From NCBI GenBank assembly GCA_963666835.2, contig CAXXGO010000001.1:1056001-1120000 (forward strand): a stretch of 64,000 bases of DNA, in the 5' to 3' direction. The position numbers and the translations under genes were made by a program. This DNA comes from Phycisphaerae bacterium (lineage in GTDB: Bacteria; Planctomycetota; Phycisphaerae; UBA1845). Every line of letters begins with the position of its first letter. Position 1 is the first letter of the stretch. Positions 11,909-62,000 of the stretch are shown here, in pieces. Under the pieces are notes generated by a model. The model had not been told where the DNA came from. It ran no database searches and was given only the letters and a program-made list of their open reading frames with translations.

Positions 11909-12142
11909 GTGCGCGCTACGAGTTGAGACATTAGGATTCACCATCCGGCGGACGATGATTGCGGGGAATCCGGGGTCTGATTGCGAGTTTTGCTTGCATT
12001 TGTGTGCCGGGTTCGGTTACAGTAGGGGGCGCAGTAGGCAAGTGTCGGGTTGCGTGGCCGCGTAGTTGCAGGCCATATCCCCACCACAGAACGAGTGGGC
12101 TCCTCGCGTGGGGGCTTCACGGAAAGGGAAGGGGTCGCAGAT

Positions 12143-15100
12143 ATGAGGTTACTTCCGGTTCGGACGCTGTTGGCTGGCGGCGTGGTATTAGGGGCGTTTT
12201 CTGCGGGCTTGGCCGGGCGAGCTACAGGGGTGGAAACGGGGGCAACCGGCGACGACGGCTGCCCTTGTGTTTCGACCACCGGGGTTGAGGCGGGGACTGT
12301 TGCCTCGGGGCAGGTGGTCCGGCTTCCGGAGACCGCGAGGGTGACGCGGCATTACCCCGACGGCACGACGGAGCGGGTCGACGACGCGGTTCCGGCAAGC
12401 ACTGATCGGCAGGAGAAGCTGATCTACAGCAACACGCTCGGCGATTTTCTCTACTCGCCTGGGGCGGGCATTCCGATAGCGGACGATTTGGTCACCGAGG
12501 CTGTGACGGACTGTGCAATTCACCGGATTACGTTTCGCGTCAACGGCGGCGTCGAGGAGGGGGACGAGGAGTTCTCCGTTTCGGTCGGCGTGTGGGATAA
12601 GTGTCCGGCATTGAGGGATGCTGAGAATCTCCTGGGCGATGAGATCACGTTTGACCAGCTTGCAGACAACGACGAAGAAACGCACGAGCTGGTGATAGAC
12701 TTCCGCGACATGGGTATCTGTGACAACGGGGATGCGTGCAGCGTACTGCACCAAGATTGCCCGGACGCATCACCATGCGTGCAGAACCTGCCCGAGTTGC
12801 CTCCGACCGTCTGGCTGAGCTATCGTTTCAGCACCAACACTGCCGGAGTGATCGCGGGCAGTCCGGCGCAAATCGGGTTCTCAGCGGATTACTATCATGA
12901 CGTCTACTGCCCCTGCACATCGTGGCTGGGCGGCTACCCCCGATTCCCCCACTCCAGCTTCTGGGCGCAGGTCTATGCCGACGGCACCACCGACGAAGCG
13001 GATCCGGACTTCTGCCCGACAGGCTTTTTTGCCTATGCGGCAGTAAGCAGGTCCTTTTCCGATGTAACGGACTACGTGCCGCCGAGTGGCGTGACGACGA
13101 GAGTGGCGGACGCCATCGTCCTTACCGGAGGACAAGGCGGTGAGCCCATTGCCTGTGAGCTGAGCGCTGTCGAGATAGGTTTCATTGGTGAACATGGCCC
13201 GTTCGAAATGGACGTGGACCTTCGCTGGCCGGGCCTCGATGACGTGATTGAAGGCACGCAAAGGACCTTCACCGGTACCGGCGAGGGGGAGCTCGAGGTG
13301 GCGAGGTTTCTATTCGAACCCGGAGTGTTCATCGAGCCTACCGATCAACCGATCTACATCACCTGGCAGACCGGCACCGGTGGAGCCTGGGCACGCCACA
13401 GCAGCATCGACCTTGGCTTGAGCTGGCGCAGTTTCTGGACGCAGCACATTATGCCGGGTATCTCGGGTGAGTGGCTAATGCGCGAGCTGTCGAGTCTCAC
13501 TCCCGTTTCGTTTTATGCAGTCGTTCAATGCCGCGGGGAGCCTCCGACAGGGGCATGTTGCCGGTTTCCAGGTGAATTGGAGGAGGTGGAGTGCTCCGAT
13601 GGTGTCACTCACGCCATGTGTCTGGGCGGGCGGTGGGTTCGCGACCGCACTTGTGCCGAAGACCCCTTCGACCCACCCTGCGGAATGGCAAGGTGCTGCC
13701 TGCCCGATGCCACCTGCGAGAATCTCACGCGGGATGAGTGCGAGCAGGCCGACGGATACTGGCGGGAACGGGCGTTTTGCGGAGACTACGGTCAACGGTG
13801 CTATTGGCGTGCTTGCGGGTATGACGCCCCACGTGATTGCAGCTACCCCGCTCTCCTACCCGGTTGCCACGATCTCTCCTGTTGCACCCAAGTATGTATG
13901 GCTGACCCCTGGTGCTGTGAGAATAACTGGGACGAGCAGTGTGTTGAGGAGGCGTTTCTGCTCTGCGACCACGAGCCGTACAATGATTACTGCTGTAATT
14001 CGAGGCCTCTCTCTCTGCAAGGGCAGCTAACGTCCAACAATGCCCGGGCCTACGGGCCATACGACGATCCGGGGTTCCATTGCCATCCGGATGGGGCCGG
14101 CACGCTTGGCTACGGGCCAATCTGGTTCAAGTTCGAGGCCACCGAGACGTCCGCCCGGTTCCATACCTGCGCTTCCGACGACACGGCCGGCGATTCGCTT
14201 CTGCAGGTCTATGCCATCGAACCGGACGACGAGTCTTGTGAGAATCTCATACCCCTGGCCTGTTCCGACGATGCCCCGGGTTGCGGGGCAGACGGTCTGC
14301 AAAGTGACGTGTGCGTGACGGGACTCGAACCGGGCGCGTCCTACCGGGTGCAGTTGGCGTCCAAGAACGCGGAGGGGCGGGGCTGGTATCGCTTGGTGGC
14401 GGAGTCCCCATGCCCGCAAGCTGCCGGTTCGAACGCCGGTGATTCAGACTTTGCGAGCATTATCCTGGAACCTGAGCCGGGGGATTCATCCCCCGCGCCG
14501 CCAGGTGCCTCGCACACGGCACGCGCGGACGACGAGCCTCGCTCACCGGCCTTGATGGACCCGGCCGAGCTTCACAACGAAATCCCGGACGACGCGCCGG
14601 TGGCCGTGCGGAAGCAGGAGCGGTCCGAGGCCTTCTGCGATGCGGGTTCGTGGGAACGCGGCATGTTCTCGACCGTACAGGTCAACGTCGACGAGCATGG
14701 CCACAATATCGTCGGAGACGCTGCCAACGAGCCGTCCATTGCCATCTCCGCGGTCGATCCGGACGTGATCGTGATCGGGTGGCGGCAGTTTGACACAATA
14801 GAATCCAACTTCCGCCAAGCGGGCTGGGCCTACAGCCACGATGCGGGGGCTACCTGGACATTCCCGGGGGTCCTGGAGCCGGGTGTATTCCGTAGCGATC
14901 CGGTCCTTGCTGCCGATGCGGACGGGAACATCCACTATTACAGCCTTACGCTTCGCGATCCAGGCTACGTCTGTGACATGTTCACGTCCTATGACGATGG
15001 CGTGTCATGGGGACGCAAGGTCTACGCCCGCGGCGGGGACAAGCCTTGGATAGCGATTGACCAAACATCCGGCCCCGGCCGTAATCACATCTATGCGCTC

Positions 15101-16324
15101 TGGTCGAGTAGTCTCAGTTGCTGCTCGGGGCATTTTACGCGCTCGATTGACGGCGGGCAGACTTACAGTACTCCGATTGACATCCCACTGGATCCCCATT
15201 GGGGAACGGTTGCCGTGGGGCTTGACGGCGCGATTTACGCCACCGGTCGGATCGGGTCTAATGCCAGCGTAGTCCGATCGACAAACGCTAGTGATCCGGC
15301 CCACGCTCCGGTGTTTGACCAGCCCGTCATGGCAGATGTTGGAGGCCTCGGCGCGTCCTGGACCGGACCCAACCCCGGTGGACTGCTGGGGCAGGGATGG
15401 GTGGCGACCGATCATTCCTATGGCGCCGGACGAGGGAACGTCTACATTCTTACCTCGGCGACGTTGGACCGCGACGACCCGCTTGATCTGATGTTCGCGC
15501 GCAGCACCGACAGCGGTTTGACCTGGAGCGAACCCGTCCGGATCAACGACGACCCGGTCGACAGCGAGGCCTGGCAGTGGTTCGGAACGATGTCGGTGGC
15601 TCCGAACGGGCGGATCGACGTCGTGTGGAACGACACGCGCAATACCGGGGTGGACAACCTGTCCGGGTTGTTTTACAGCTTCTCGATCGATGGTGGGGTA
15701 ACCTGGACGGAGAACGTCCCGATCAGCCCGGTATTCGATAGCCACGCCGGCTGGCCGCAACAGAACAAGCTCGGCGATTACTACGACATGATCTCCGACA
15801 ATGTCGGGGCCAATCTGGCGTACGCGGCCACGTTCAATGGTGAGCAGGATATATACTTCGCGCGGATCGAGCCGGACGTCGACTGCAACGACAATGGCAT
15901 TCCCGATATCACGGAAATCGCCGGCGGAAGCGTTGCCGATTGCGATGGCGACTTGGTGCCCGATGAATGCTCGCCGGACTTCGACGGTGACGGGTACATC
16001 AACGGGTGCGACTTCGATATAGACAACGACGGCGTTTCCAACGACTTCGATGTCTGCAACTTCACTCCGTTGGGGGCGATCGTTACCGGCGACGGGAGTC
16101 AACGCGGCGACTTCATGAGCGATTGCGATATAGACCTGCGCGATTTCCGTTCGTATCGGGCGTGCCTTTTGACCGGCGGCCCGGCTGAGGGCGATCCGTC
16201 CACTGACTGCCTCGCGGCCTTTGACTTCGACGGTGACGCCGACATCGACTTAGCCGACGGCCGGCTACTGTTGAACGACTTCACCGGCCTGATCCGCCGG
16301 GCTCCGGATACGTTGGTTGAGTGA
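12143..16324 (+). CDS. Large secreted Cys-rich protein with BNR/Asp-box (sialidase-like) propeller and C-terminal dockerin-like motifs
   Basis: Signal peptide from ATG 12143 (ORF is open from 12050); Asp-boxes SHDAGATW, SYDDGVSW, SIDGGQTY, STDSGLTW, SIDGGVTW; GACC and DCNDNGIPD motifs; DFDGDADIDLAD near the C-terminus. Confidence 0.85.
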   Translation: MRLLPVRTLLAGGVVLGAFSAGLAGRATGVETGATGDDGCPCVSTTGVEAGTVASGQVVRLPETARVTRHYPDGTTERVDDAVPASTDRQEKLIYSNTLGDFLYSPGAGIPIADDLVTEAVTDCAIHRITFRVNGGVEEGDEEFSVSVGVWDKCPALRDAENLLGDEITFDQLADNDEETHELVIDFRDMGICDNGDACSVLHQDCPDASPCVQNLPELPPTVWLSYRFSTNTAGVIAGSPAQIGFSADYYHDVYCPCTSWLGGYPRFPHSSFWAQVYADGTTDEADPDFCPTGFFAYAAVSRSFSDVTDYVPPSGVTTRVADAIVLTGGQGGEPIACELSAVEIGFIGEHGPFEMDVDLRWPGLDDVIEGTQRTFTGTGEGELEVARFLFEPGVFIEPTDQPIYITWQTGTGGAWARHSSIDLGLSWRSFWTQHIMPGISGEWLMRELSSLTPVSFYAVVQCRGEPPTGACCRFPGELEEVECSDGVTHAMCLGGRWVRDRTCAEDPFDPPCGMARCCLPDATCENLTRDECEQADGYWRERAFCGDYGQRCYWRACGYDAPRDCSYPALLPGCHDLSCCTQVCMADPWCCENNWDEQCVEEAFLLCDHEPYNDYCCNSRPLSLQGQLTSNNARAYGPYDDPGFHCHPDGAGTLGYGPIWFKFEATETSARFHTCASDDTAGDSLLQVYAIEPDDESCENLIPLACSDDAPGCGADGLQSDVCVTGLEPGASYRVQLASKNAEGRGWYRLVAESPCPQAAGSNAGDSDFASIILEPEPGDSSPAPPGASHTARADDEPRSPALMDPAELHNEIPDDAPVAVRKQERSEAFCDAGSWERGMFSTVQVNVDEHGHNIVGDAANEPSIAISAVDPDVIVIGWRQFDTIESNFRQAGWAYSHDAGATWTFPGVLEPGVFRSDPVLAADADGNIHYYSLTLRDPGYVCDMFTSYDDGVSWGRKVYARGGDKPWIAIDQTSGPGRNHIYALWSSSLSCCSGHFTRSIDGGQTYSTPIDIPLDPHWGTVAVGLDGAIYATGRIGSNASVVRSTNASDPAHAPVFDQPVMADVGGLGASWTGPNPGGLLGQGWVATDHSYGAGRGNVYILTSATLDRDDPLDLMFARSTDSGLTWSEPVRINDDPVDSEAWQWFGTMSVAPNGRIDVVWNDTRNTGVDNLSGLFYSFSIDGGVTWTENVPISPVFDSHAGWPQQNKLGDYYDMISDNVGANLAYAATFNGEQDIYFARIEPDVDCNDNGIPDITEIAGGSVADCDGDLVPDECSPDFDGDGYINGCDFDIDNDGVSNDFDVCNFTPLGAIVTGDGSQRGDFMSDCDIDLRDFRSYRACLLTGGPAEGDPSTDCLAAFDFDGDADIDLADGRLLLNDFTGLIRRAPDTLVE

Positions 16325-26409: not shown

Positions 26410-26603
26410 GGCGGCTGCGGAGCATGGCTGGTGCACGTAAGAGGCCCTATCTCGCTATCGTTTTCGGTGGCAGCTCGTGGTGGACGGGCTGCTTCTGAAG
26501 CGGATGCTCTATGAAGTAATCGCCTTGCGAGGTTTGACATGTGCGCCGGCCCCTGGCTGCGGAGGCGGCGGATGAGGAGAATCGAGAATTCCAGATGGAG
26601 GAG

Positions 26604-29336
26604 ATGAGCATGTCACGAGGCATCATCAGTATCACCGTCATGTTGTTCGTCAGCACTGCAGTGCTGAGTGTCGAGACCCGAGCCCGAGTCATTAATGAAG
26701 CGGCGACGATCGAGTGCGTGGCGTACGCGGATGGAAACATCCGTGACCGTGATAGCGCGTACGCGTGTCTGCTGAACCGCAAGATCCTCGAGGCCGTATC
26801 GGAGGATGGTCACGGCGTATCCGGCGTTGACTGCGGCAGCGCGATTGTCCTGCCACCCGGTGTCTCGGGAGTGGCAGCGGTCAAGGCGATCGCTTCCGGA
26901 AGCAGGGACAAATCGGAGAGTTGCGCCGTGATGGCAGGATCTGATGCCGGAGCCGATGTGATTCTCGCTGACCTGCAGAGCGTCGTGCGTTACGGCGACG
27001 AAGGGGGTGTCACGGCATTGTCAATCGGCACGACCAACTGCAACGTCGGCACGGAACGAGTTGATTGCCAGTACCGGACGAATAAGCATCCGGTGGAAGG
27101 GCTGGGACTTTATCGACTTAACGGCGACCGGTTTGAACAGATTGGAGCCAGTTGGGTCTTCCACTGGTTCTATGCTCTCTCGGAGAGTTTCTGCGGTCCG
27201 TGCAATGATGTGACGAACGGGTCTCAACTGGGGGTGGGCTGTTCCGACTCTAACTCCGCTTCCCTTCACGCCTGTCAAACGAATCTGAGCCCCAGGTCCA
27301 CAATCAACGCCTACACCGGGTATTTCGCCCATCCATGGGAAGGTTGGGATGATCCGCCGCCAACGTCGATTATCGAGCGTCGTCTTCAAGTTCGGACTGA
27401 CGATCTTGACCCGGTCCGCAACGCAGACGCTCGGTACTTCATCGAGGCTCATCTCATCGGACCGGATGATGCGGCGGCAGGTACGGCCGACAACAACGCA
27501 TCTTATCGAGAGGTTCTTCTAGTCGAGGAACCTCCGGGAATCTACAACCTCGCGGTCGTCGGAGACTGGCGGACTCAGCGCGAGCAGCCGGCGGTCCGGG
27601 CCTGGCAGGATTGCGATTCTTCGGTTGTCGAGACGGATATCCGCGTTCCGGGCGAGGGATTGTTCATTTTGGCGGCCAAGGCCGCTGAGACCCCGACGGG
27701 GACCTGGCGTTACGGGTATGCGCTTCAGAACGTCAATTCGGATCGGAGCGGACAGTCGTTCCGTCTGTCTATCCCCCAAGACGGTATCATAACCAACATT
27801 GCATTTGCTGATGTCGATTATCACAGCGGCGAGATCTATGACGACGCCGACTGGCTGTATACTATCGAGGATGACGCCCTGACCTGGTCGACAGATACCT
27901 TCACCACCAACGAAGACGCAAACGCGTTGCGCTGGGGGACGATGTACACTTTCTCCTTTGAGACCACTTCACCGCCGGTTGCGACGACCGCCACGCTCGG
28001 TCTCTTCAAGCCCGGTGTCCCCGACGATGTTCTCGTCGATACCATAGGCCCGACCCTTGCGATGGTCGACTGCAATGGGAATGGCAATGACGATCGGTGT
28101 GACGTCGACTGCGGACATCCCGGTTGTGACGAACCCTGCGGCGGTAGCATCGATTGCGATGCCAACGGCGTTCCCGACGAGTGCGAGCAAGACTGCAACG
28201 CCAACGGTATAGCCGACCAGTGTGACCTGGACGGCTGTCTGCCCGGTGAGCTCTGGTGTGCCGACTGCAATGGCAACTCGGTGCCGGATGGGTGTGACCC
28301 GGATTGCGACGGCGACGGCATTCCGGACGATTGTGACGTCATGGATGACGCGGATGGCGACGGGGTCCCCGACTGCTTCGACCTTTGTTCTTGCACTCCG
28401 GGGCTCTGCGTTTGCCCGGAGGTGGATCGGTGCTGCTGGCCGTTCGGCCTGTGCCTCGAGGGCATTTCTCGGGATGTGTGCCTCGAAAGCGCTGGGACCC
28501 CGGATTGCGTGGAGTGGCCTTGTGAGGACGGTTGCATCACCGCCGAGTTTGACTGTAATAACAACGGCATTGCGGATATTCGTGACGTCAGGTGCGGTCC
28601 GGGCGATGGTTGCGAACCGCCGTGTGGAACCAGTGCGGACTGCAATGACAACGGTATTCCTGACCGTTGCGACCTTGCCGAAGGAACGAGCGAGGACTGT
28701 CAGCCGGACGGTGTTCCCGATGAGTGCCAACTAGTCGGCAACGACTGCGATGGCAATGAAGTGCCGGACAGGTGTCAGCCAGATGTCGACCGGGACGGCT
28801 ATATCGACGCTTGCGACAACTGTCCAAACGACTATAACCCGGTCCAGGCGGATCGGGACGGAAACGGGTTGGGCGATGTTTGCGATGCGCACCTTGACAT
28901 CCTTCCCGATCAGTGCCCCAATCGGGTCGGGGCGGACAAGGTGCTGCGGGTTGTCGTCGTGGGGGCTTCGGCGTTTCATGTCCGGCAGATCGATGTGGGC
29001 TCGATGTTCCTGGCGCGGATGGACGGCGACGGCGGCGTGGTCGCGGCAATGGGGCCGCACGATCTGTACCCCCCGGTAATGCGCGACATTGCGTCGCCAA
29101 CGCCCGCGTGTGAGTGTTTGCCGGCGGCGGCCGATGGTCAAACGGACCTGGAGCTGTATTTCTACACCCGCGACGTTGTTCGGCTGCTCAAGCTCGGGAC
29201 CGAATCGGCGGCGTCTGCAGGACCGCTGGTTCTCCGAGGTAGACTTCACGACGGAAGTGAATTCGAGGCCGTCGATTGCCTTTCGTCGGAGCATCCTTCG
29301 CCCGGGGCGATTAAGAGACCGAGGGTGGGCCGATAA
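26604..29336 (+). CDS. Secreted Cys/Asp-rich protein with DCNxNGxPDxC repeats and a thrombospondin type 3-like repeat
   Basis: GGAGGAG then ATG 26604/26610 and signal peptide; many DCNGNG/DCDANG units; DNCPNDYNPVQADRDGNGLGDVCD. Confidence 0.85.
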   Translation: MSMSRGIISITVMLFVSTAVLSVETRARVINEAATIECVAYADGNIRDRDSAYACLLNRKILEAVSEDGHGVSGVDCGSAIVLPPGVSGVAAVKAIASGSRDKSESCAVMAGSDAGADVILADLQSVVRYGDEGGVTALSIGTTNCNVGTERVDCQYRTNKHPVEGLGLYRLNGDRFEQIGASWVFHWFYALSESFCGPCNDVTNGSQLGVGCSDSNSASLHACQTNLSPRSTINAYTGYFAHPWEGWDDPPPTSIIERRLQVRTDDLDPVRNADARYFIEAHLIGPDDAAAGTADNNASYREVLLVEEPPGIYNLAVVGDWRTQREQPAVRAWQDCDSSVVETDIRVPGEGLFILAAKAAETPTGTWRYGYALQNVNSDRSGQSFRLSIPQDGIITNIAFADVDYHSGEIYDDADWLYTIEDDALTWSTDTFTTNEDANALRWGTMYTFSFETTSPPVATTATLGLFKPGVPDDVLVDTIGPTLAMVDCNGNGNDDRCDVDCGHPGCDEPCGGSIDCDANGVPDECEQDCNANGIADQCDLDGCLPGELWCADCNGNSVPDGCDPDCDGDGIPDDCDVMDDADGDGVPDCFDLCSCTPGLCVCPEVDRCCWPFGLCLEGISRDVCLESAGTPDCVEWPCEDGCITAEFDCNNNGIADIRDVRCGPGDGCEPPCGTSADCNDNGIPDRCDLAEGTSEDCQPDGVPDECQLVGNDCDGNEVPDRCQPDVDRDGYIDACDNCPNDYNPVQADRDGNGLGDVCDAHLDILPDQCPNRVGADKVLRVVVVGASAFHVRQIDVGSMFLARMDGDGGVVAAMGPHDLYPPVMRDIASPTPACECLPAAADGQTDLELYFYTRDVVRLLKLGTESAASAGPLVLRGRLHDGSEFEAVDCLSSEHPSPGAIKRPRVGR

Positions 29337-48889: not shown

Positions 48890-49642
48890 GTGGCTGATTC
48901 AGCGCTAATCCGCGTTCTGCAAGACCCGCCGCTTGACGGTCCGACGAACATGGCCCGGGACGAGGCGTTGCTGCTGCGGGTCGAGGTGGGGGAGTCGAGC
49001 CCGACCCTTCGGCTGTACCAATGGGAACCGCCGACGATTTCGCTGGGGTACTTTCAGCGGTATGCCGACTATGAGGCCTTGCCCGCGCCGGCCGGGGAGT
49101 TGGCCGTAGTGCGGCGGCTGACCGGTGGGGGGGCGATCCTCCACGATCTTGAACTTACGTACTCGCTTGTGCTGCCGATTGGGCATTCCCTTCTGGCGGA
49201 CCACCCCAATCGCCTATACGAGATTGCCCACGACGCGGTCATCGCCGCGTTGGCGGGGCTCGATGTGAGTGTCGCCCGGTGCGGTGTGACCGATGATTCG
49301 GGCCCGACCCGTGGTCCGTTCTTCTGTTTCGAGCGGCGGCATTGCTATGACGTGCTGGCCGGTTCGGACAAGATCACCGGCAGCGCCCAACGCCGGACCC
49401 ACCGCGCCGTTCTCCAACACGGGTCGATTATCCTCGGCAACCGCTACGATCAACAAGCCACCGCCCGCGTGGCCGGGTCGTACGAGCAGAGCGTGAACCG
49501 CTTGCGCTCCACCTTTGTGGATCACCTTTCCGACCTGACCGACTGCGCCTTCCAAGCCGGAGATTGGACCCCGGAAGAACTAGCCGCCGCCGAGTCGCTA
49601 ACGCCGAAGTACGCCGGAGATGACTGGGTGAGACGGCGTTAG
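48890..49642 (+). CDS. Lipoate--protein ligase / octanoyltransferase (LipM-like)
   Basis: NMARDEALL, LRLYQW, SLGYFQ, VRRLTGGGAILH, KITGSAQ, LQHGSI; next to gcvP. Confidence 0.9.
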   Translation: MADSALIRVLQDPPLDGPTNMARDEALLLRVEVGESSPTLRLYQWEPPTISLGYFQRYADYEALPAPAGELAVVRRLTGGGAILHDLELTYSLVLPIGHSLLADHPNRLYEIAHDAVIAALAGLDVSVARCGVTDDSGPTRGPFFCFERRHCYDVLAGSDKITGSAQRRTHRAVLQHGSIILGNRYDQQATARVAGSYEQSVNRLRSTFVDHLSDLTDCAFQAGDWTPEELAAAESLTPKYAGDDWVRRR

Positions 49643-49874
49643 TAGGGGGAGAGCTTGGACGGCGAGTAGGGGGCATACCTCTAAAACACCCTCTCCCGGT
49701 CTTCGGAGGCGCCCTACAGTCTACTCAAGTCTACTCAACGACGGCACGCCCGCCGGTGTTCCCGGTGCCAGATTCGCAACCGTTGCGGCAATCGTGCAAC
49801 GGTCGACGAGGCATGGTGGACCGAACGATGCTATTGGGCTTCTCAGGGGCGGCAGCTTGTGACAGAATACACGT

Positions 49875-52800
49875 ATGCCTCTGCGTGGTGGATCTTCGGA
49901 CAAGGCTGGCAATCGCTACGAGGCGATATGGACCGTTGTCTGCATGTCGCGCGTGCTGGGCGGAGAGTACGACTCGATCCGTCTTGAGCCGCCCGGGCCA
50001 GAAGGCGAAGGCGTCGAGTTTTGGCTGCGCCGCGGTGATTCGCGTGAGTATCACCAAGTGAAGCGTCAGGGCGCCAGACGTGGGCACTGGACACTTGGGG
50101 AGCTGAGGGATAACGGTGTTCTGACTGCGTTTCGGAAGCACCTCGCCAACAATACAGCAACATGCGTATTCGTATCGTCGCAGGATGCATTCGGTCTGCG
50201 TAATCTGGCGGAACGCGCGCGAGATGCAGCTGACCACGAGGAATTCAAAGACGAATTCGCTCAAGGTGAGTGGAATGAACGCTTCTCTGAGCTTCTGGCA
50301 CACTGGCCCGGATGCTCAAGCGCCGAAGGATTCTCGCTTCTCAAGCGGATACACGTACACACTATCGACGAGGAAATGCTTCGGTTGCATGCGGAGCTAA
50401 GGCTAGAGTCAGTCGTCGAGGGGGACACATGCGCTGCCACCGACGTTCTTTTCGTGCATGCGCTTGACTCCGTCCACAAGGAGCTTGATAGAGGGTGGAT
50501 TCTCAACCACTTGCAATGCCGCGGCTTCACTCAGCCGATCTGGGCGGCTCCAAAGGCGCTTTCCGAAGTCGTCGAGAAAGCGAATGAGCGATTCCTTGTG
50601 CGCCTCCGTGACGAGCTCATTCGAGGCGAGCTAATACAGCGCGGAGAGAGTGAGTGTGTGCTCGCAGCGCTTCAAGAGGGCTCCACAAAACGCGGTGCGA
50701 TCGTCACAGGCGGTGCCGGATCCGGTAAGAGCACTGTGTTGCTTCAAGTAATCGAGAGCCTTGAACAACAGAACATCCCTACGCTTGCGTTTCGCATCGA
50801 TAACCTCACCCCGACGCAGTCCCCAAACGAAGCGGGGCGCCAGATTGAACTGCCAAAATCCCCGGTAGCGACACTGGCCGCGATGGCCAATGGCAGACCT
50901 TGTGTTCTTATTCTGGATCAACTTGACGCGGTCAGCCTTATCTCCGGCCGGAATCCGACATTCTTCGAGTGCTTTGACGAGATGGTTCGTCAGGCACTCA
51001 TGCTGCCCGCGATGCGCCTGGTGATTGCGTGCCGCCGTTTCGACTTTGAGAATGATCACCGTCTGCGCCGCCTCGGAGGCCATGGCGATGTGTTCGAAAA
51101 CGTGGAGGTCGGGACGCTTTCGGGCGAGACGGTTCGGCACACCGTGAATGCACTCGGTATCGATCCTTCGCGAATCGGCGACAAACAGGTCGAGCTGCTG
51201 TCGGTACCCGCCCATCTGAAGCTCCTTTGCGAAGTCGCCCCGGGGAAAGGTGCGATCCTGGATTTCGATACCGCTAACGAGCTGTACGGCCTGTACTGGG
51301 AGCGCAAGGACCGGCTGCTCCGCGCAAAGCTCGGGTCGACGGTCACGTGGTTGCCAGTCATCGATCGGTTGTGCGAATACATGAGCAACAGACAAGCGCT
51401 GTCCGCACCAGCGATCAATCTCGATGATGTGGCCGCGATCCGCGACGCTCTCTTGTCGGAGCATGTGCTTGTACAAGACGGGGCGCGGGTCAATTTCTTC
51501 CACGAGGGGTTCTTCGACTACGCCTTTGCCCGCCGGTTCGCAGCCACCGACGGCGATCTGATGGGGCTGCTCCGCTCTGACGAGCAGCACCTCTTCCGCC
51601 GTGCCCAGGTTCGTCAGATCCTGCTTCACCAGCGTGAGATCGACCGGCCACTCTACGCTAAGAACGTTAACACCCTCCTGACCTCTGCGGATATCCGGTT
51701 CCACATCAAGCAACTCGTATTCGCCCTGCTTGCACAGTTCACTGACCCGACCGAAGCGGAATGGCGGATCCTGGAGGAGTTGCTTCGAGACTCAGACTAC
51801 TCGAATCGCGATCAGATCTGGTTTGCGACGCGGACGCTTCCGTGGTTCAGACTTCTGGACTCGCTTCATGTCGTCGAGAATTGGCTCAAGCAGAACGATT
51901 CCGACAGGGTCGACCGAGCTGTAACGTTGTTACACGGCGTCCAGCGCGACGCTGCCGATCGAGTTGCGGAGTTGGTCGAACCGTACGTCGGAACTTCGCC
52001 CGAATGGCGCAACCGGTATCGTTACCTCGTTCAGTGGGCGGATCTCCAGGCTGGACGCCGGTTCTTCGAACTGTTCCTGCGACTCCTCGACTACGGTGAT
52101 CTGGATGGCATAGGGGGGGCTCGCGAGGGAGATCTTCTGAGTATCCTGTACGAACTCTCCAAAAGTCGCGCGGACTGGGCCTGCGAGGCAATTGGGCATT
52201 ATCTGGCGCGATGCATGAGGGTGTCTCTAGACTCCGGTGAGACGAATCCGTTTAAAGCAAAGGGCGGGTCGCGCTACAGTCACTCGTCGGACCGCGTCCT
52301 GATCGGTTCGGCCGAGCGAGCGCCCAGCGCGTTTATCGAGCACGTTCTCCCATTCGTGCTTCGCGTGATCGAACTGAATGCCAGCCAAGAAGGCGAGAAA
52401 CCGTGGGAGGACACCGTCTGGCGTTGGCGGTTCCAGGACTGGGGCCACGGCATCGATGATCACCTGCTTCGTGCCACCGATGAAGCGCTGAGCAAGTTAG
52501 CACGCGAAGCTCCTAACTCCTTCGAGCGCATCGCGCGCCCGCTGCGGAAGTCTGAATACGAAACCGTGCAGTTCTTGCTCATGCGGGCTTACGCTGCGAC
52601 CGGGGAGAGGTTTGCCGACGAAGCGATCGATTACCTATGCGAGCACGCGCGACGTCTGCGCTGCGGATACTTTGACGCGGGCCTCTCACATCGTGCTTCC
52701 CGTGATCTCATCCAGGCCGCGACGCCGCACTGCTCGACTGAACGGCTCGCAAACCTGGAGGCGATCCTCCTTGGGTACTACACCAACGGGGAGCAGACTG

Positions 52801-54371
52801 CCGACGGTCGGCAACGTCGCGGGGAGACGCAATTCGACCTGCTACTTGCGATCGATCACACGCGCCGTAGTGCAAGCGTTCAAGCGCGGATTGGCGAGTG
52901 GCAGCGGAAGTTCTGCAGGAAAGCGCCAGCACAGCCCGCGCGAAGTGGCATGTGCTTCGTCGGCTCCCCGATATCCGCGAAGGCCGTCGAGAAGATGAAC
53001 GATGAGCAATGGCTCGGCGCTCTCGCGCGTTATTCGAGTCGAGAATTAGAGTGGCGCGACGGCGCGCCGGTCGGCGGTCCGCATGAACTTGGTCAGATGT
53101 TGGAGGCGCAGGTCAAGAAAGACCCCGCCCGCTTCGCCCGCCTCGTCCTCAGCTTCCCTGACGGAACCAATCCCGCGTATTTCCAAGCCGTACTACGCGG
53201 GCTCGGCTCCAGTACGGAAAACGCCCAGGGCATCTTTGAAGCTTGCCGGCACTGTTATCGGCTAGCGAATCGACCGGCGGGTTTGGAGTTCTGTCGCCTC
53301 GCGGAGAAGATTCCAGAGTTGCCGTGGCCGGAAGACCTGCTCGGCGCGATCGCGTGGTATGCGACGGAAGACCCCGATCCTGACCATGAATCTTGGCGGA
53401 CCGAAGCATCAGGTGGGCGGTGTTACTATGGAGGAGACATCTACACAGCCGGGATCAACTGTGTGCGAGGCACGGCGGCAGGCGCTTTGAGGGCGTTGCT
53501 CTCCGCCGACACTGGACGACTTCCACGCTTCCTGCCCACACTCAGGAGAATGGTGCGGGATCCATCAATCGCAGTGCGATCTTGCGTTGCCACCACACTT
53601 CTTCCCGTTCTGAGTCTTGATCGTGACCTCGCCGTGGCGTTGTTCTCGGAACTCTGCGAAACCGAAGATGTCCTGTTGAAGACGCACTACATGGAGAAGT
53701 TCATGCGGTATGCGACGGCTACTCATTTCGAACAGCTTCGACCGCATGTGGAGCGCATGCTGTGTTCCAGTGACTCCGAGGTTGCACAGGTGGGTGCAAG
53801 GCGAGCATGTATCGCATCGTTTGATCGGGAAGACGTGGCTGAACTGAGGGACAAGTGCGTGAGCGGTTCAGAGTCGTTGCGCTTGGGGGCCGCTCAGGTG
53901 TTTGCCGCAAACGTCGGTGATGCACGGTTCTGTTCGGTTTGTGAGGCCGAACTACTACGGTTTTTCGATGATCCCAGCGACAAGGTTAGGGATTCGGCAG
54001 CCGCGTGCTTCGACCATCTTGACAACGACGCTCTTGGCCACGTACCGGGGCTCATGGTGGGATTCCAGAGTAGCGCCGCATTCGAAGCGTACCATGAGCA
54101 TTTGATCCGAGCGCTGGAAGAGACGACAGCACAGCTTCCCGATGTGACGATCTCCGTCTGCGAACGGTTCATCGAGATTGCTGGATCGGCCGCTGGCGAC
54201 ATGCGAACGCGTGCAGCGAGCGACGCACACCGTCTCAGCGATCTCATCATTCGCGCATATCACCAAGCGGGCGATGGAGCCGTCCGCGAGCGTTGTCTGG
54301 ACACGATCGACAACCTGCTTCGAGTGGGGGCAACGGGACTGCAGGAGGCCCTCAGTGAATTCGAGCGCTGA
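49875..54371 (+). CDS. STAND NTPase with N-terminal PD-(D/E)xK-like nuclease and long helical-repeat C-terminus (Avs/NLR-like)
   Basis: GNRYE..E..GVEF..YHQVK N-domain; Walker A GGAGSGKST; Walker B LILDQLD; ACRRFD; FFHEGFFDY; HEAT-like DPSIAVR and DPSDKVR. Confidence 0.85.
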   Translation: MPLRGGSSDKAGNRYEAIWTVVCMSRVLGGEYDSIRLEPPGPEGEGVEFWLRRGDSREYHQVKRQGARRGHWTLGELRDNGVLTAFRKHLANNTATCVFVSSQDAFGLRNLAERARDAADHEEFKDEFAQGEWNERFSELLAHWPGCSSAEGFSLLKRIHVHTIDEEMLRLHAELRLESVVEGDTCAATDVLFVHALDSVHKELDRGWILNHLQCRGFTQPIWAAPKALSEVVEKANERFLVRLRDELIRGELIQRGESECVLAALQEGSTKRGAIVTGGAGSGKSTVLLQVIESLEQQNIPTLAFRIDNLTPTQSPNEAGRQIELPKSPVATLAAMANGRPCVLILDQLDAVSLISGRNPTFFECFDEMVRQALMLPAMRLVIACRRFDFENDHRLRRLGGHGDVFENVEVGTLSGETVRHTVNALGIDPSRIGDKQVELLSVPAHLKLLCEVAPGKGAILDFDTANELYGLYWERKDRLLRAKLGSTVTWLPVIDRLCEYMSNRQALSAPAINLDDVAAIRDALLSEHVLVQDGARVNFFHEGFFDYAFARRFAATDGDLMGLLRSDEQHLFRRAQVRQILLHQREIDRPLYAKNVNTLLTSADIRFHIKQLVFALLAQFTDPTEAEWRILEELLRDSDYSNRDQIWFATRTLPWFRLLDSLHVVENWLKQNDSDRVDRAVTLLHGVQRDAADRVAELVEPYVGTSPEWRNRYRYLVQWADLQAGRRFFELFLRLLDYGDLDGIGGAREGDLLSILYELSKSRADWACEAIGHYLARCMRVSLDSGETNPFKAKGGSRYSHSSDRVLIGSAERAPSAFIEHVLPFVLRVIELNASQEGEKPWEDTVWRWRFQDWGHGIDDHLLRATDEALSKLAREAPNSFERIARPLRKSEYETVQFLLMRAYAATGERFADEAIDYLCEHARRLRCGYFDAGLSHRASRDLIQAATPHCSTERLANLEAILLGYYTNGEQTADGRQRRGETQFDLLLAIDHTRRSASVQARIGEWQRKFCRKAPAQPARSGMCFVGSPISAKAVEKMNDEQWLGALARYSSRELEWRDGAPVGGPHELGQMLEAQVKKDPARFARLVLSFPDGTNPAYFQAVLRGLGSSTENAQGIFEACRHCYRLANRPAGLEFCRLAEKIPELPWPEDLLGAIAWYATEDPDPDHESWRTEASGGRCYYGGDIYTAGINCVRGTAAGALRALLSADTGRLPRFLPTLRRMVRDPSIAVRSCVATTLLPVLSLDRDLAVALFSELCETEDVLLKTHYMEKFMRYATATHFEQLRPHVERMLCSSDSEVAQVGARRACIASFDREDVAELRDKCVSGSESLRLGAAQVFAANVGDARFCSVCEAELLRFFDDPSDKVRDSAAACFDHLDNDALGHVPGLMVGFQSSAAFEAYHEHLIRALEETTAQLPDVTISVCERFIEIAGSAAGDMRTRAASDAHRLSDLIIRAYHQAGDGAVRERCLDTIDNLLRVGATGLQEALSEFER

Positions 54372-54488: not shown

Positions 54489-54531
54489 GGGACAATACAG
54501 GGGTAAGGGACCCGTACCTGTTGATTGTCCC
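54489..54531. repeat. Imperfect hairpin between convergent genes
   Basis: GGGACAATACAGG..CCTGTTGATTGTCCC, preceded by a tandem GACAATAC. Confidence 0.45.
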
Positions 54532-54641
54532 TGCAGGTCTTGTTCCTCGACACTGCGCTACACAAGCCGACGCTGGTCTACAAAGTCTCGAATACGGTAC
54601 GAGCGCGGCTGACGAGACCGTAACGCGAATCCCCGCCGGCC

Positions 54642-55270: not shown

Positions 55271-55769
55271 GCGGCAGGTCTCGTTCCTCGACCGTGCCCT
55301 ACACCTGCCGGGTGCCATGGCTCACGCTTGCGTGGTCATGATGGTCTGCAGGGTCGGCGGCGCGTAAGGGTATCAATCTCGTCAGGCGGCCACGCGGTAA
55401 ACCATCCCGCAGGGACGTAAGGCAAGTAGCCACGGGTGGAGCGCAGCGGAACCCGTGGGTGGAATCCACCCCCACGCACTCCCGTCCCGAAGGGCCGGCG
55501 GATTACATTAGCATGAGAACCCGACCCAGAATAAGTCGCATAGAACCTGTGTTGCCCCGGAACCTGCACAGGTCACAGAAACCCGGCTCCGTTGTTCAAC
55601 CCACTTCGGGGTTGGTGCAAAAAGGAGCTCTGTGACCCAGGGTGGCACTTCGCGGCTACGCCGCTTCGTTTACCCTGGGCTCTGTTGTGAAACGCCTTCG
55701 GCGTAAGTGCGGAAGACGCGCGGCGTGCAAAGACCGCGGCAGGTCTCGTTCCTCGACCGTGCCCTACAC
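55271..55769. repeat. REP/MITE-like mosaic bounded by an exact 34-bp direct repeat
   Basis: GCGGCAGGTCTCGTTCCTCGACCGTGCCCTACAC at 55271-55304 and 55736-55769; internal hairpins CCACGGGT..ACCCGTGG, CCCAGGGT..ACCCTGGG, ACGCCTTCGGCGT. Confidence 0.8.
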
Positions 55770-55895
55770 GCGTTGCCGACGGGGGGCATGCGAAAACACC
55801 GCCTGCGTGCATGGCAGAGGCGGGGCGGAGCCTCTGCGCGGGGAGCGCGTCCGCCCTGCGACCGGGGTCCCATCCGCCGCGTAACGACAGACTCA

Positions 55896-58911: not shown

Positions 58912-61668
58912 TTATGGTTCAGACGGCGATTCGGTGAATTCGACCGCCATTATGGCATAGTCCGCCAGATCCACGCGGCCGTTGCCGTCGAGGTCGCTGA
59001 CCGTTCCGCAGTCGCACAGATTCTTGGCCAGATGCACGCAGGCAGCATCCCAGCCAACCGTGCAACAGATCGGGTCAGCTTCGCAGACCAATGAGCAGCA
59101 CGATTCATCCTGGCATCCGGGGCTCCGGTGGGCCGCGCAGCAGACATCCCGGCCCGGACAATTGAATAGCCGACATTCTACGTCGTTACACGTAGTGCCA
59201 TCACCGTGGTACACGGTTCCGAACAGCCCTAGTGTGCTCAGCGAGCATTCGAACTCGGTCAGATCGACGCAGGTTCCGTATTGCGCTCGCGCCCCTTCGG
59301 CAACCACTCGGGAGTCTTCCGATGGAGATCGGGCCGGAGAAGGTGCGGCCGCGCCATAGGATAGGGCGATGCAACATGCCCCGCTCGGGTCGGGGCATGC
59401 TATGCTGTCGTCCTGGCAGGAAGTGCCGTCCCCCTGATAACTTCCACCGTAGACCCCGGTACAGATGTTGTTCGAAACGCCGTTTACGCAGCTTTCGGCG
59501 AATACGCAGCAAGCGCCGAAGCACTCCACATTCTCGCAAGCGACGCCAACACCTTTGAACGTGCCTCCCCGGCTCTCGCAAGACTCTGCCGTCGAAGCCT
59601 GTTCACAACCCCAGTCGAGACAGCAGGCCCCGCCGCATACTATTGTGGCGCAATCGCTTCCGTCACCTTTGTAGCTTCCGCCTTCGTCGGTGCACTCCCC
59701 CGCTCCGCTGTCGTAGCAATCTCCCCAAACAGCCGGACAGCATGCGCCGCCGCAAATGATTGAATCGCAGGTGCTGCCCGCAAGGGTCGCAAAGGTGCCG
59801 CCGAGATCTTCGCAGTACCCCTGCCCCACGTCATCGAAGCACGTCCCGTTGTACTCGACGCAACATGCGCTGCTGCAAACCGAGTTCTCGCACTCCGTGC
59901 CCAGGCCGTTGAAGATCCCCCCGTTGTCGGTACAGGCCTCGGGGCCTTCCGGGTAACATCCTCCCCAGTAGTCGCAGCAAGCTCCGGTGCAGACTGCGGA
60001 TTCGCAATCCGTACCCGGACCCTGGAAGGTGTCACCATTATCAACGCAGGCACCTTCGCCGCAGTCGTAACATGCGCCATCCCACACACTGCAGCACGCC
60101 CCACCGCAAGTTACCTCGTCACAGGAGCTGCCTAAACCGTGAAAAGTGCCGCCATCGGAATCGCAGGCCGCAGATCCCGTCTCGTAGCAATCTCCCCAGT
60201 ATTCGTCGCAGCACGCCCCTGAACAGTCGATGTCGTCGCAAGGCGTACCAAAGCCGTGGAACGTCCCCTCGATGTCTGCGCAGTAACCTGGCCCTGCCCA
60301 GTCAAAGCAGTACCCCTCCCAGTTATCGCAGCACGCCCCGCTGCAGCTCTCGTCGTCGCAGGTGGTGCCCACTCCGCGGAACGCGTAACCTTGGTCCACG
60401 CACCATCCCTCCCCGGTGTCGTGGCAGTCTCCGTTGTACTCGTCACAGCAAGCTCCGCTGCAACTCTCAGTGTCGCACGTGGTGCCCACTCCGCGGAACG
60501 GGTAGCCTTGGTCTACGCACCATCCCTCCCCGGCGTCGTGGCAGTCTCCGTTATACTCGTCACAGCATGCTCCGCTGCAACTCGTGTTCTCGCATGTTGT
60601 GCCCACTCCTTTGAATGTGTGGCCGTGGTCCGTGCACCATCCTTCCCCGGTGTCATAGCAGTAGCCGCTGTGCTCGTCACAGCAAGCTCCCGTACAAACG
60701 GACGTGTCACACGTACTTCCTTCCCCTTGGAAAGCACCGCCGACGTTCTGGCAGATCTCTGCGCCACCTTCCCCACAGTCTCCGTTGTCGAGACAGCACG
60801 CTCCGGACCCGGGCGGCATGCAATCGACGTCCGGGTCCCCGCAACGGGTGCCAAACCCCGCGAAGACACCGCCTTGCTCCAGACAGCTCAGCAGGCTCTG
60901 ATAATCCCAACAGCCACCGTAGTTGGTAAGATGGCAGCACGCGCCATCGCACTTCGAGCAGCCATTGACGTAGCATGCCGTTCCTTGTCCAAGTGGTGTT
61001 CCACCGGCGAGCATGCAACTGGCGGTCGTGGTGTAGCTCCAACATTGTCCATTCCCAAAACAGCAGGCTCCGAGCACCTCCGGTGGGTCGCACGATACCT
61101 CCCCGCACTGAGTTCCCCAGCCGAGGAAAACGCCGCCGGCGGTCTGGCAGTCGGGCTCGGACAGGCTTGAGCAAGTGTCCGTATTCAGGCAACAAGCCCC
61201 GGTAGTGGGCGGGCAAGGTATGCCGGGATCGGTGCAGAGCGTGCCGTCCCCGAGGTATGTTCCGTCGGAGAACGCGCAGTGGACCGAGTTGGTGACGTCG
61301 CACGATCCGTCAGGCCGACAGCACGCCCCGTCGCACGCGATGTCGCAACAATCGAGCCCGACTCCGTGGAATCGTCCACCTGTCGCCTCACAGACGTCTT
61401 CCGAAACGACTCGACAAGCTCCGATCCCCAGGCAGCATGCCCCTTCCTCATCACGGCCTGCTGCGATTACGGGGTTGAGCGACTTCGAAGCTACCCGCCG
61501 GCCGGACGGCGGCTGGAAGACAGTGCGGGCCGATTCCAGAGTAGCTATGTCGCCGGCTTGCTCGGATGGCAAATGGCGGGCGCGTTGTTTCGCCTCGGGA
61601 GCCCCAGCCAGCATCGGCGTAGCGGCGCAGAATGCCAACAGGATCACGATATTTCTCGTTTTCTGCAT
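58912..61668 (-). CDS. Secreted Cys-rich protein with 18 tandem GACC repeats and a dockerin-like tail
   Basis: MQKTRNIVILLAF signal peptide; 17 GACC plus 1 SACC units of ~39 aa; PGCQDESCCSLVCEADPICC..WD..CV; DLDGNGRVDLADY. Confidence 0.9.
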   Translation of the reverse strand: MQKTRNIVILLAFCAATPMLAGAPEAKQRARHLPSEQAGDIATLESARTVFQPPSGRRVASKSLNPVIAAGRDEEGACCLGIGACRVVSEDVCEATGGRFHGVGLDCCDIACDGACCRPDGSCDVTNSVHCAFSDGTYLGDGTLCTDPGIPCPPTTGACCLNTDTCSSLSEPDCQTAGGVFLGWGTQCGEVSCDPPEVLGACCFGNGQCWSYTTTASCMLAGGTPLGQGTACYVNGCSKCDGACCHLTNYGGCWDYQSLLSCLEQGGVFAGFGTRCGDPDVDCMPPGSGACCLDNGDCGEGGAEICQNVGGAFQGEGSTCDTSVCTGACCDEHSGYCYDTGEGWCTDHGHTFKGVGTTCENTSCSGACCDEYNGDCHDAGEGWCVDQGYPFRGVGTTCDTESCSGACCDEYNGDCHDTGEGWCVDQGYAFRGVGTTCDDESCSGACCDNWEGYCFDWAGPGYCADIEGTFHGFGTPCDDIDCSGACCDEYWGDCYETGSAACDSDGGTFHGLGSSCDEVTCGGACCSVWDGACYDCGEGACVDNGDTFQGPGTDCESAVCTGACCDYWGGCYPEGPEACTDNGGIFNGLGTECENSVCSSACCVEYNGTCFDDVGQGYCEDLGGTFATLAGSTCDSIICGGACCPAVWGDCYDSGAGECTDEGGSYKGDGSDCATIVCGGACCLDWGCEQASTAESCESRGGTFKGVGVACENVECFGACCVFAESCVNGVSNNICTGVYGGSYQGDGTSCQDDSIACPDPSGACCIALSYGAAAPSPARSPSEDSRVVAEGARAQYGTCVDLTEFECSLSTLGLFGTVYHGDGTTCNDVECRLFNCPGRDVCCAAHRSPGCQDESCCSLVCEADPICCTVGWDAACVHLAKNLCDCGTVSDLDGNGRVDLADYAIMAVEFTESPSEP

Positions 61669-62000
61669 CTTCTTTCCTCCGTACATGTGGCGACACGCCG
61701 TGCAGGCGCGCCATATGTCTCTGAAACGGAAACGATGGGCACACCAAGACTGCATCGCAGCTCCGGAGGCTTCAGCGGAGCACGACACACCCGGTAGCCG
61801 TATCATACGGAAACCCGGGGGAAGCACGCAAGCTGAGAGAGGGAATCGGGCGACAGCAGACGGAATGCCGCGCTACGGTGAGCATTGCCCCACCGTTGCC
61901 AGCCGGGGCGGAGTCGGGTAGTTTGTCGGTAGAACGTCGGCCTGAGGGGGCTCAGGCTGGGAATTCACAGGCTGGCTCTGCGAGTAGAAGGAGCTGTCGG

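What the first reader, a model, noticed from the sequence alone, without database searches (positions are those of the whole stretch)
49875..54371. Solitary nuclease-STAND-HEAT gene: candidate NLR-like anti-phage sensor of unassigned type
Seen: a 1498-aa protein whose N-terminus has GNRYE..E..GVEF..HQVK, then Walker A GGAGSGKST, Walker B LILDQLD, and roughly 900 aa of helical, HEAT-like sequence, sitting alone between housekeeping genes. Known: Avs/AVAST proteins join a PD-(D/E)xK effector (Cap4- or Mrr-like, often QxK) to a STAND core and a repeat sensor that binds phage proteins. Inference: this is a one-gene defence system. The Glu in place of the usual PD Asp and the HEAT-like sensor suggest it may fall outside the described Avs types.
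Basis: partly seen in the sequence, partly recalled or inferred. Interest (0 to 1): 0.7.

Follow-up and report, generated by a model that had tools for sequence, protein, structure and literature searches.

The report
Avs7-type phage capsid-sensing immune receptor
This lone 1498-residue gene encodes a distant relative of the recently described bacterial immune receptor Avs7, predicted to clamp a virus's main capsid protein and then likely kill the infected cell by cutting DNA, so it is most likely a new member of a known defence family rather than a new type.

Summary
In detail: an intact 1498-aa ORF with nuclease, STAND NTPase and helical sensor, alone between housekeeping genes. The defence reading is supported; 'unassigned type' is not. 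The only PDB sequence hit is 9N00, Salmonella Avs7 (Lee et al. 2026, PMC13581612), which senses phage major capsid protein (MCP). A 116-sequence profile matches it from nuclease to C-terminus (E 9e-77); a sensor-only profile hits nothing else (E 3e-26). SeAvs7's Arg367, Arg395, His545 and MCP-contact Asn1204 are kept. The N-domain has a Cap4/DUF4297 fold (Z 14-15). A co-fold of the sensor with an MCP from a same-family genome scored 0.75 against 0.00 for the best control, possibly from memory of the solved complex. The gene occurs in 2 of 40 relatives, at other loci, and is scattered across many phyla, often beside defence genes. EF-Tu-binding residues are mostly lost. Unverified: residues 664-943 do not align to SeAvs7, and the authors' Avs7 list was unreadable.

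The parts
49875..54371 (+). Avs7-like STAND receptor gene, 1498 aa, single copy in the genome
   Evidence: full-length homology to SeAvs7 9N00
49875..50537 (+). N-terminal Cap4/DUF4297-type restriction-like nuclease (aa 1-221); E16, E38, E48, Q61-x-K63
   Evidence: VIA Z 15.1 to DUF4297 9c1m (model 8-217, rmsd 3.0, 171 aligned), Z 14.6 to Hachiman 8zue (rmsd 3.5, 191), Z 13.9 to Cap4 7yia (rmsd 3.8, 211); conservation
50016..50018 (+). E48, the Glu at the position of the usual PD Asp
   Evidence: E in 113, D in 2, K in 1 of 116
50538..51554 (+). STAND NTPase (NBD-HD1-WHD, aa ~222-560)
   Evidence: VIA Z 24.0 to NLRP9 (rmsd 4.4, 397 aligned) and 23.4 to NLRC4; aligned to SeAvs7 270-659
50709..50735 (+). 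Walker A GGAGSGKST (aa 279-287)
   Evidence: K285 116 of 116
50907..50927 (+). Walker B LILDQLD (aa 345-351); D348 = SeAvs7 D358
50949..51503 (+). R359, R387 and H543, equivalent to SeAvs7 R367 (autoinhibition), R395 (ATP gamma-phosphate) and H545 (ADP beta-phosphate)
   Evidence: alignments; 110, 116 and 116 of 116; roles from PMC13581612 section 10
51555..54368 (+). Helical-repeat sensor (aa ~561-1498); aa 945-1498 homologous to SeAvs7 944-1522; aa 664-943 not aligned to it
   Evidence: helices
52413..53912 (+). Predicted MCP-binding surface (contacts spread over aa 847-1346), including N1195 = SeAvs7 N1204
   Evidence: co-fold; alignment; N1195 in 106 of 116
52881..53060 (+). Region equivalent to the SeAvs7 EF-Tu interface: Q1003, G1007, G1048, R1052, D1062 against Q999, D1003, K1044, H1048, D1059
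   Evidence: alignment; columns variable in the clade

Best explanation
The gene encodes a nuclease-STAND-sensor protein homologous along most of its length to Salmonella Avs7, and it likely works as a one-gene abortive-infection receptor that is predicted to bind phage major capsid protein and would then oligomerise and cut DNA. Steps: (1) resting state, ADP-bound and autoinhibited by the sensor C-lobe (inferred from kept R359/H543); (2) the two-lobed sensor clamps a newly made HK97-fold MCP monomer (predicted by co-fold and homology); (3) ADP-to-ATP exchange and tetramer formation (inferred from SeAvs7; R387 kept); (4) the Glu-variant Cap4 nuclease degrades DNA and stops the infection (fold shown, activity inferred). 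It probably does not use EF-Tu (inferred from missing residues). It was likely acquired horizontally and dropped in after the lipoate-ligase gene.
For: Single-sequence search of 177,635 PDB sequences gives one hit, 9n00_A, E 2.7e-27; 9N00/9N01/9YIX are SeAvs7. Profile A1 matches it at E 9.2e-77 over 15-663 and 944-1497; next hit E 5e-9 is a designed HEAT repeat. Sensor alone: only hit 9n00, E 3.5e-12; sensor profile: only hit at 1e-6, E 2.7e-26, to SeAvs7 residue 1522. Key NTPase residues kept. Cap4/DUF4297 fold of the N-domain. Co-fold of sensor 770-1480 with an MCP (phrog_10) from same-family genome G015: score 0.75, best of 3 controls 0.00; the mark was reached by 116 of 157 solved complexes and 2 of 215 mismatched pairs; runs agree in at least 72% of contacts, partner pLDDT at least 72; N1195 is among the best-resolved contacts. 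Present in 2 of 40 relatives, at different loci; not downstream of the lipoate ligase in any of 19 relatives' loci; GC3 0.66 against 0.69-0.80 for 11 nearby genes. Homologues in Planctomycetota, cyanobacteria, Actinomycetota, Chloroflexota, Acidobacteriota, proteobacteria and archaea. 29 of 62 homologue loci have a PADLOC hit among the nearest ORFs.
Against: Identity to SeAvs7 is low and residues 664-943 (part of the sensor N-lobe) are not aligned to it by the profile. No structural comparison with SeAvs7 was possible: it did not appear in the fold library, whose entries end 2026-04-08. The co-fold may pass from memory of 9N01/9YIX and uses a stand-in MCP. Of three SeAvs7 MCP-contact residues named in the paper only N1204 is kept; Y1289 aligns to R1278 and N1361 to G1348. 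Predicted interface columns are less conserved than the rest of the sensor (mean 0.33 against 0.45). 33 of 62 homologue loci had no PADLOC hit nearby, and this copy has none. No experiment on this protein.
Confidence: 0.82

Rival explanations
1. A sister family of Avs7: an anti-phage STAND receptor that shares the NTPase and C-lobe but whose diverged N-lobe gives it a different main trigger or a different host cofactor.
For: Residues 664-943 unaligned to SeAvs7; EF-Tu residues mostly absent; only 1 of 3 named MCP contacts kept; Avs8-24 have no models or structures in the libraries used, so they could not be compared.
Against: Same length and domain order, colinear match to the last helix; MCP co-fold passes with contacts at the homologous Asn; the paper says Avs7 recognition rests on shape, and mutating those three residues did not abolish defence; only 192 of 1,757 Avs7 homologues are in the EF-Tu clade.
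Confidence: 0.13
2. An Avs7 whose N-terminal domain is not an active DNase: the Glu substitutions mark a dead or retuned site, and killing, if any, uses another substrate or partner.
For: Glu at 16, 38 and 48 where SeAvs7 has Gln/Asp/Asp (E16 and E38 by the alignment; E48 by my manual shift of a low-confidence gap).
Against: E38, E48, Q61 and K63 are 93-100% conserved over 116 sequences at 31-53% identity, as expected of a working active site; QxK mutants abolish killing in other Avs (Se2Avs7 Q79A-K81A, supplement seen); no conserved partner gene seen beside this copy.
Confidence: 0.08
3. A non-defence signalling STAND or housekeeping ATPase.
For: It sits among housekeeping genes here and in G039; STAND clades include non-defence members.
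Against: Nuclease effector, homology to a validated defence protein, patchy spread, defence neighbours in 29 of 62 loci, no synteny.
Confidence: 0.03

Closest known systems
Avs7 (SeAvs7, PDB 9N00/9N01/9YIX; Lee et al. Nature 2026, PMC13581612)
   Same: Single gene of ~1500 aa; Cap4 nuclease with QxK; STAND NTPase with D358/R367/R395/H545 equivalents; homologous sensor C-lobe to the last helix; N1204 equivalent; predicted MCP binding.
   Different: Glu-rich nuclease site; 3 of 5 EF-Tu interface residues absent and none conserved in the clade; sensor residues 664-943 unaligned; found mostly outside Enterobacteriaceae in the 79 loci seen.
Avs3 (8DGC, terminase sensor) and Avs4 (8DGF, portal sensor)
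   Same: Top Foldseek hits (E 4e-12 to 2e-10); nuclease-STAND-repeat layout; Avs3 also has a Cap4 effector.
   Different: TM-scores 0.14-0.28, 11-13% identity, rmsd 28-43; not among the 33 PDB sequences matched by the profile at E 0.01.
Dsr1 (shares the Avs7 sensor according to PMC13581612 section 6)
   Same: Would share the MCP-binding sensor.
   Different: Dsr1 has a sirtuin effector and no STAND NTPase; no Dsr1-like protein appeared among the 120 listed of 415 hits of the sensor search, which were all close relatives.
PADLOC candidate PDC-M54A
   Same: Best PADLOC match, E 2.7e-20.
   Different: Best stretch is limited to the NTPase (254-557 of the protein); no paper in the library names it.

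Membership tests
Avs7 | N-terminal effector (variable in the family; Cap4 nuclease in SeAvs7) | tested here: met
   Cap4/DUF4297/HamA fold, Z 13.9-15.1; profile aligns to SeAvs7 from residue 14
Avs7 | STAND NTPase with D358, R367, R395, H545 equivalents | tested here: met
   D348, R359, R387, H543; 116, 110, 116, 116 of 116
Avs7 | Sensor homologous to the Avs7 sensor (sequence) | tested here: met
   Sensor profile 6-559 to SeAvs7 944-1522, E 2.7e-26, only hit at 1e-6; residues 664-943 not covered
Avs7 | Bilobed, sharply bent sensor that superposes on SeAvs7 | tested here: inconclusive
   SeAvs7 not listed in the fold searches; library ends 2026-04-08; model covers only 1-1200
Avs7 | C-terminal helix of conserved length | tested here: inconclusive
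   Profile runs to SeAvs7 1522, but these residues were in neither model
Avs7 | Binds HK97-fold major capsid protein (prediction) | tested here: met
   Co-fold 0.75 against best control 0.00; 116 of 157 solved and 2 of 215 mismatched pairs reach the mark; may reflect likeness to 9N01/9YIX
Avs7 | MCP-triggered oligomerisation, DNA cleavage and phage defence | not testable with these tools
   needs bench work
Avs7 | Nests in the authors' Avs7 set (Supplementary Tables 6-8) | not testable with these tools
   The large supplementary files could not be read; the 7 readable files hold none of 5 search terms, including the authors' own Avs7 accessions
Avs7, EF-Tu-binding clade | Q999, D1003, K1044, H1048, D1059 equivalents | tested here: not met
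   Q1003, G1007, G1048, R1052, D1062: 2 of 5 match; Q in 9 and D in 45 of 116 at the two matching columns
Avs3 / Avs4 / Avs5 | Sequence homology to their solved chains | tested here: not met
   None among 33 PDB sequences matched by the profile at E 0.01, where SeAvs7 scores E 9e-77; no Avs-named PADLOC model among 10 hits at E 0.1
Avs1 / Avs2 | Family model match | tested here: inconclusive
   No Avs-named hit in PADLOC or NCBIfam; that these libraries hold such models is my recall
Avs8 and Avs10-24 | Sensor cluster identity | not testable with these tools
   No sequences, models or structures of them were available in the calls made

The most novel reading that the evidence does not exclude
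It represents a large, untested branch of Avs7-like receptors, spread through planctomycetes, cyanobacteria, Chloroflexota, actinomycetes and archaea, that has dropped EF-Tu, rebuilt its sensor N-lobe (possibly for another host cofactor or for satellite-type capsid proteins) and runs a Glu-only Cap4 active site with altered metal or substrate preference.
Probability: 0.15. Interest if true: 0.5.

Novelty: new member of a known kind. Interest (0 to 1): 0.27.

Why it matters
It resolves the finding into a family characterised in 2026 and predicts the trigger (capsid protein, not terminase or portal). Standard libraries miss it: Pfam, NCBIfam and PADLOC gave no Avs call. It offers a natural likely EF-Tu-independent Avs7 from a poorly studied host group and a Glu-variant nuclease site for comparison with SeAvs7, which is useful to specialists but not surprising.

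Tried and rejected
Single-sequence fold of residues 1-700 was useless (pLDDT 38). Fold searches could not test likeness to SeAvs7: it was not listed. Pfam finds nothing for the N-terminal 230 aa at 1e-5. Integron or mobile-element boundary: the 34-nt repeat downstream (3 copies) has hundreds of BLAST matches genome-wide and none flanks the gene upstream, so it was rejected as a cassette boundary; the one tRNA in the window is 9 kb away. No promoter or terminator consensus in 49600-49900. No PF05065 capsid gene in the own genome, so a relative's MCP was used. The sensor search for Dsr1-like architectures was crowded by close relatives. Cluster look-up gave no accession numbers for 9 homologues, and two plasmid homologue accessions were not in the readable supplements, which does not bear on membership as the relevant tables were unreadable. 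No tree including SeAvs7 was built, as its sequence was not held as a stored protein. YjbQ search only showed that it lies on other contigs than the ligase in relatives; no empty site was defined. No earlier scan findings matched. Literature searches: 'PDC-M54' 0 papers; 'Avs7' + 'Planctomycet' 0 papers.
Full report
Observation. The ORF 49875..54371 (+) is intact, 1498 aa, single copy in a 92%-complete genome. The family is large: 1,706 clusters at E 1e-30 for residues 1-1200. The neighbours are a lipoate ligase upstream and YjbQ, DUF123 and a carbon-nitrogen hydrolase downstream. Of the 37 other window ORFs, 2 hit PADLOC at 1e-15 and both are ordinary by Pfam.

Identity. Pfam gives only sub-threshold P-loop and HEAT matches, NCBIfam nothing useful, PADLOC only PDC-M54A over the NTPase. 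The PDB sequence search gives one hit, 9n00_A, 1523 aa, E 2.7e-27. A full-text search tied that code to Lee et al., whose data statement names 9N00, 9N01 and 9YIX as Salmonella Avs7 alone and with MCP and EF-Tu. The family profile matches SeAvs7 at E 9.2e-77 over profile positions 15-663 and 944-1497; the next of 33 hits is a designed repeat at E 5e-9, and Avs3, Avs4 and Avs5 are not among them. The sensor alone (576-1498) hits only 9n00, and a 39-sequence profile of 940-1498 matches SeAvs7 944-1522 at E 2.7e-26 as the only hit at 1e-6. A profile of the last 300 residues is less specific: a designed HEAT protein scores slightly above 9n00. Residues 664-943 are not aligned to SeAvs7.

Anatomy. 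An alignment-based model of 1-1200 (53 sequences, pLDDT 88.5, pTM 0.65) gives an N-domain like DUF4297 (Z 15.1, rmsd 3.0, 171 aligned), Hachiman 8zue (Z 14.6) and Cap4 (Z 13.9), and an NLR-type NTPase (NLRP9 Z 24.0, rmsd 4.4, 397 aligned). Foldseek ranks Avs3 and Avs4 first but with TM 0.14-0.28. SeAvs7 was not listed; the library ends on 2026-04-08, so this test is inconclusive. By counting along the printed alignments, SeAvs7 D358, R367, R395 and H545 fall on D348, R359, R387 and H543, kept in 116, 110, 116 and 116 of 116. The paper assigns these to nucleotide binding, autoinhibition, the ATP gamma-phosphate and the ADP beta-phosphate.

The Glu. SeAvs7 has Asp where this clade has E38; E48 pairs with SeAvs7 D46 only after a manual shift of a low-confidence gap (my inference). 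Glu is a clade trait: 113 of 116 in the alignment, and 110 of 111 further proteins from the N-domain search. Three of those 111 carry the nuclease at 38-49% identity on other C-terminal parts with TPR-family Pfam hits (P0187, P0196, P0201). The paper reports at least 20 effector types on Avs7. The effector therefore does not define the type.

Trigger. SeAvs7 is activated by MCP. The own genome has no PF05065 match; 42 of 151 genomes searched in the class do, among them G015 of the same family, whose MCP (phrog_10, E 5e-35) lies near an integrase and an excisionase-like gene. Co-folding sensor 770-1480 (51 rows) with MCP 150-431 (13 rows) scored 0.75 against a best control of 0.00; the mark was reached by 116 of 157 solved complexes and 2 of 215 mismatched pairs, counts that hold only roughly with my own alignments; runs agree in at least 72% of contacts and partner pLDDT is at least 72. 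N1195, the equivalent of MCP-contact N1204 and kept in 106 of 116, is among the best-resolved contacts. Caveats: a like complex is solved, so the pass may be from memory; Y1289 and N1361 are not kept; interface columns are less conserved than the rest (0.33 against 0.45).

EF-Tu. SeAvs7 uses Q999, D1003, K1044, H1048 and D1059; the equivalents are Q1003, G1007, G1048, R1052 and D1062, and the columns vary. The paper puts 192 of 1,757 homologues in the EF-Tu clade. This protein likely lies outside it. No co-fold with EF-Tu was run.

Mobility and context. 2 of 40 relatives carry a homologue: G039 (61%) between a pseudouridine synthase and a TPR gene, and G015 (30%) beside an AAA_15 ATPase gene. 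None of 19 relatives' lipoate-ligase loci has it within the flank held (up to 1.5 kb), though 10 of them keep the upstream GcvP-like gene. GC3 is 0.66 against 0.69-0.80 for 11 nearby genes. The 79 loci kept from 509 confirmed stretches span many bacterial phyla and archaea; the closest (67%) is titled Phycisphaerae bacterium. Five plasmids carry near-full-length homologues and 2 viral contigs do. For neighbourhoods I dropped 2 short loci, picked 253 ORFs (nearest two per side, at least 190 aa, simple longest-ORF calling) from 77 loci and scanned 207 from 62 loci: 46 of 207 ORFs and 29 of 62 loci hit PADLOC at 1e-15 (27 without a TnpB-like and a dGTPase hit), mainly restriction-modification genes, PtuA/GajA/AriA-type ATPases, Lamassu, Shedu and Hma-like genes. 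The comparison, 2 of 37 window ORFs, is one genome only, several loci are kin, and generic ATPase or helicase hits inflate the count, so this is supportive and not a statistical test.

Mechanism and verdict. Shown: architecture, folds, conserved residues, homology to SeAvs7, patchy spread. Predicted: MCP binding. Inferred from SeAvs7: ADP-bound autoinhibition, nucleotide exchange, tetramer, DNA cleavage, abortive infection. Confidence 0.82 that it is an MCP-sensing Avs7-family receptor; 0.13 for a sister family with another main trigger or cofactor. New member of a known kind; interest 0.27.

Papers. PMC13581612: abstract, outline, found passages, sections 5, 6, 8-13, 17 and 44, the supplement list, part 1 of one supplementary archive and a term search of 7 files; its large supplements, which would hold the Avs7 member lists, could not be read and bear on membership. 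PMC12803255: supplement listing only. All other papers: search listings only. Names such as GcvP, REP-like and TnpB are from my own knowledge.

Noticed in passing
window 49875-49943: The public gene call for this protein (P0154, 1475 aa) appears to start 23 codons later, which would drop the conserved GNRYE helix; homologues support the earlier ATG.
   Followed up: partly
window 54530-54563, 55271-55304, 55736-55769 and 55366-55770: A 34-nt repeat in three copies and longer 130-180 nt elements, all with many matches across the genome (1,843 BLAST rows, most on the 34-mer); REP- or MITE-like intergenic repeats.
   Followed up: partly
window 58915-61827 (-): 971-aa ORF made of many cysteine-rich GACC repeats with a possible signal region; no Pfam match at 1e-5.
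   Followed up: no
window 12050-16321 (+) and 26541-29333 (+): Large ORFs of 1424 and 931 aa with no Pfam or PADLOC match.
   Followed up: no
window 4186-7344 (-): 1053-aa bacterial protein with four Laminin B domains plus PKD-like domains.
   Followed up: no
window 9207-11579 (-): 791-aa protein with a Peptidase_S74 chaperone domain, typical of tail-fibre-like proteins, with no capsid gene (PF05065) found in the genome.
   Followed up: no
L120:5325-12085 (G015:C44): Compact element with integrase, excisionase-like gene, a 661-aa unassigned ORF and a major capsid gene; looks like a phage satellite with its own capsid (satellite reading is my inference).
   Followed up: partly
L031, L034, L044, L050, L052, L091, L106: Several homologues appear split into two ORFs or interrupted, suggesting frequent decay, insertion or sequencing frameshifts.
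   Followed up: no
P0187, P0196, P0201: The same Glu-type Cap4 nuclease fused to other TPR-bearing proteins of 751-984 aa; possible further defence architectures.
   Followed up: partly
L060:7093-11640 (-): A second 1516-aa ORF lies tail to tail with the homologue in a cyanobacterial contig; no PADLOC hit at 1e-15.
   Followed up: no
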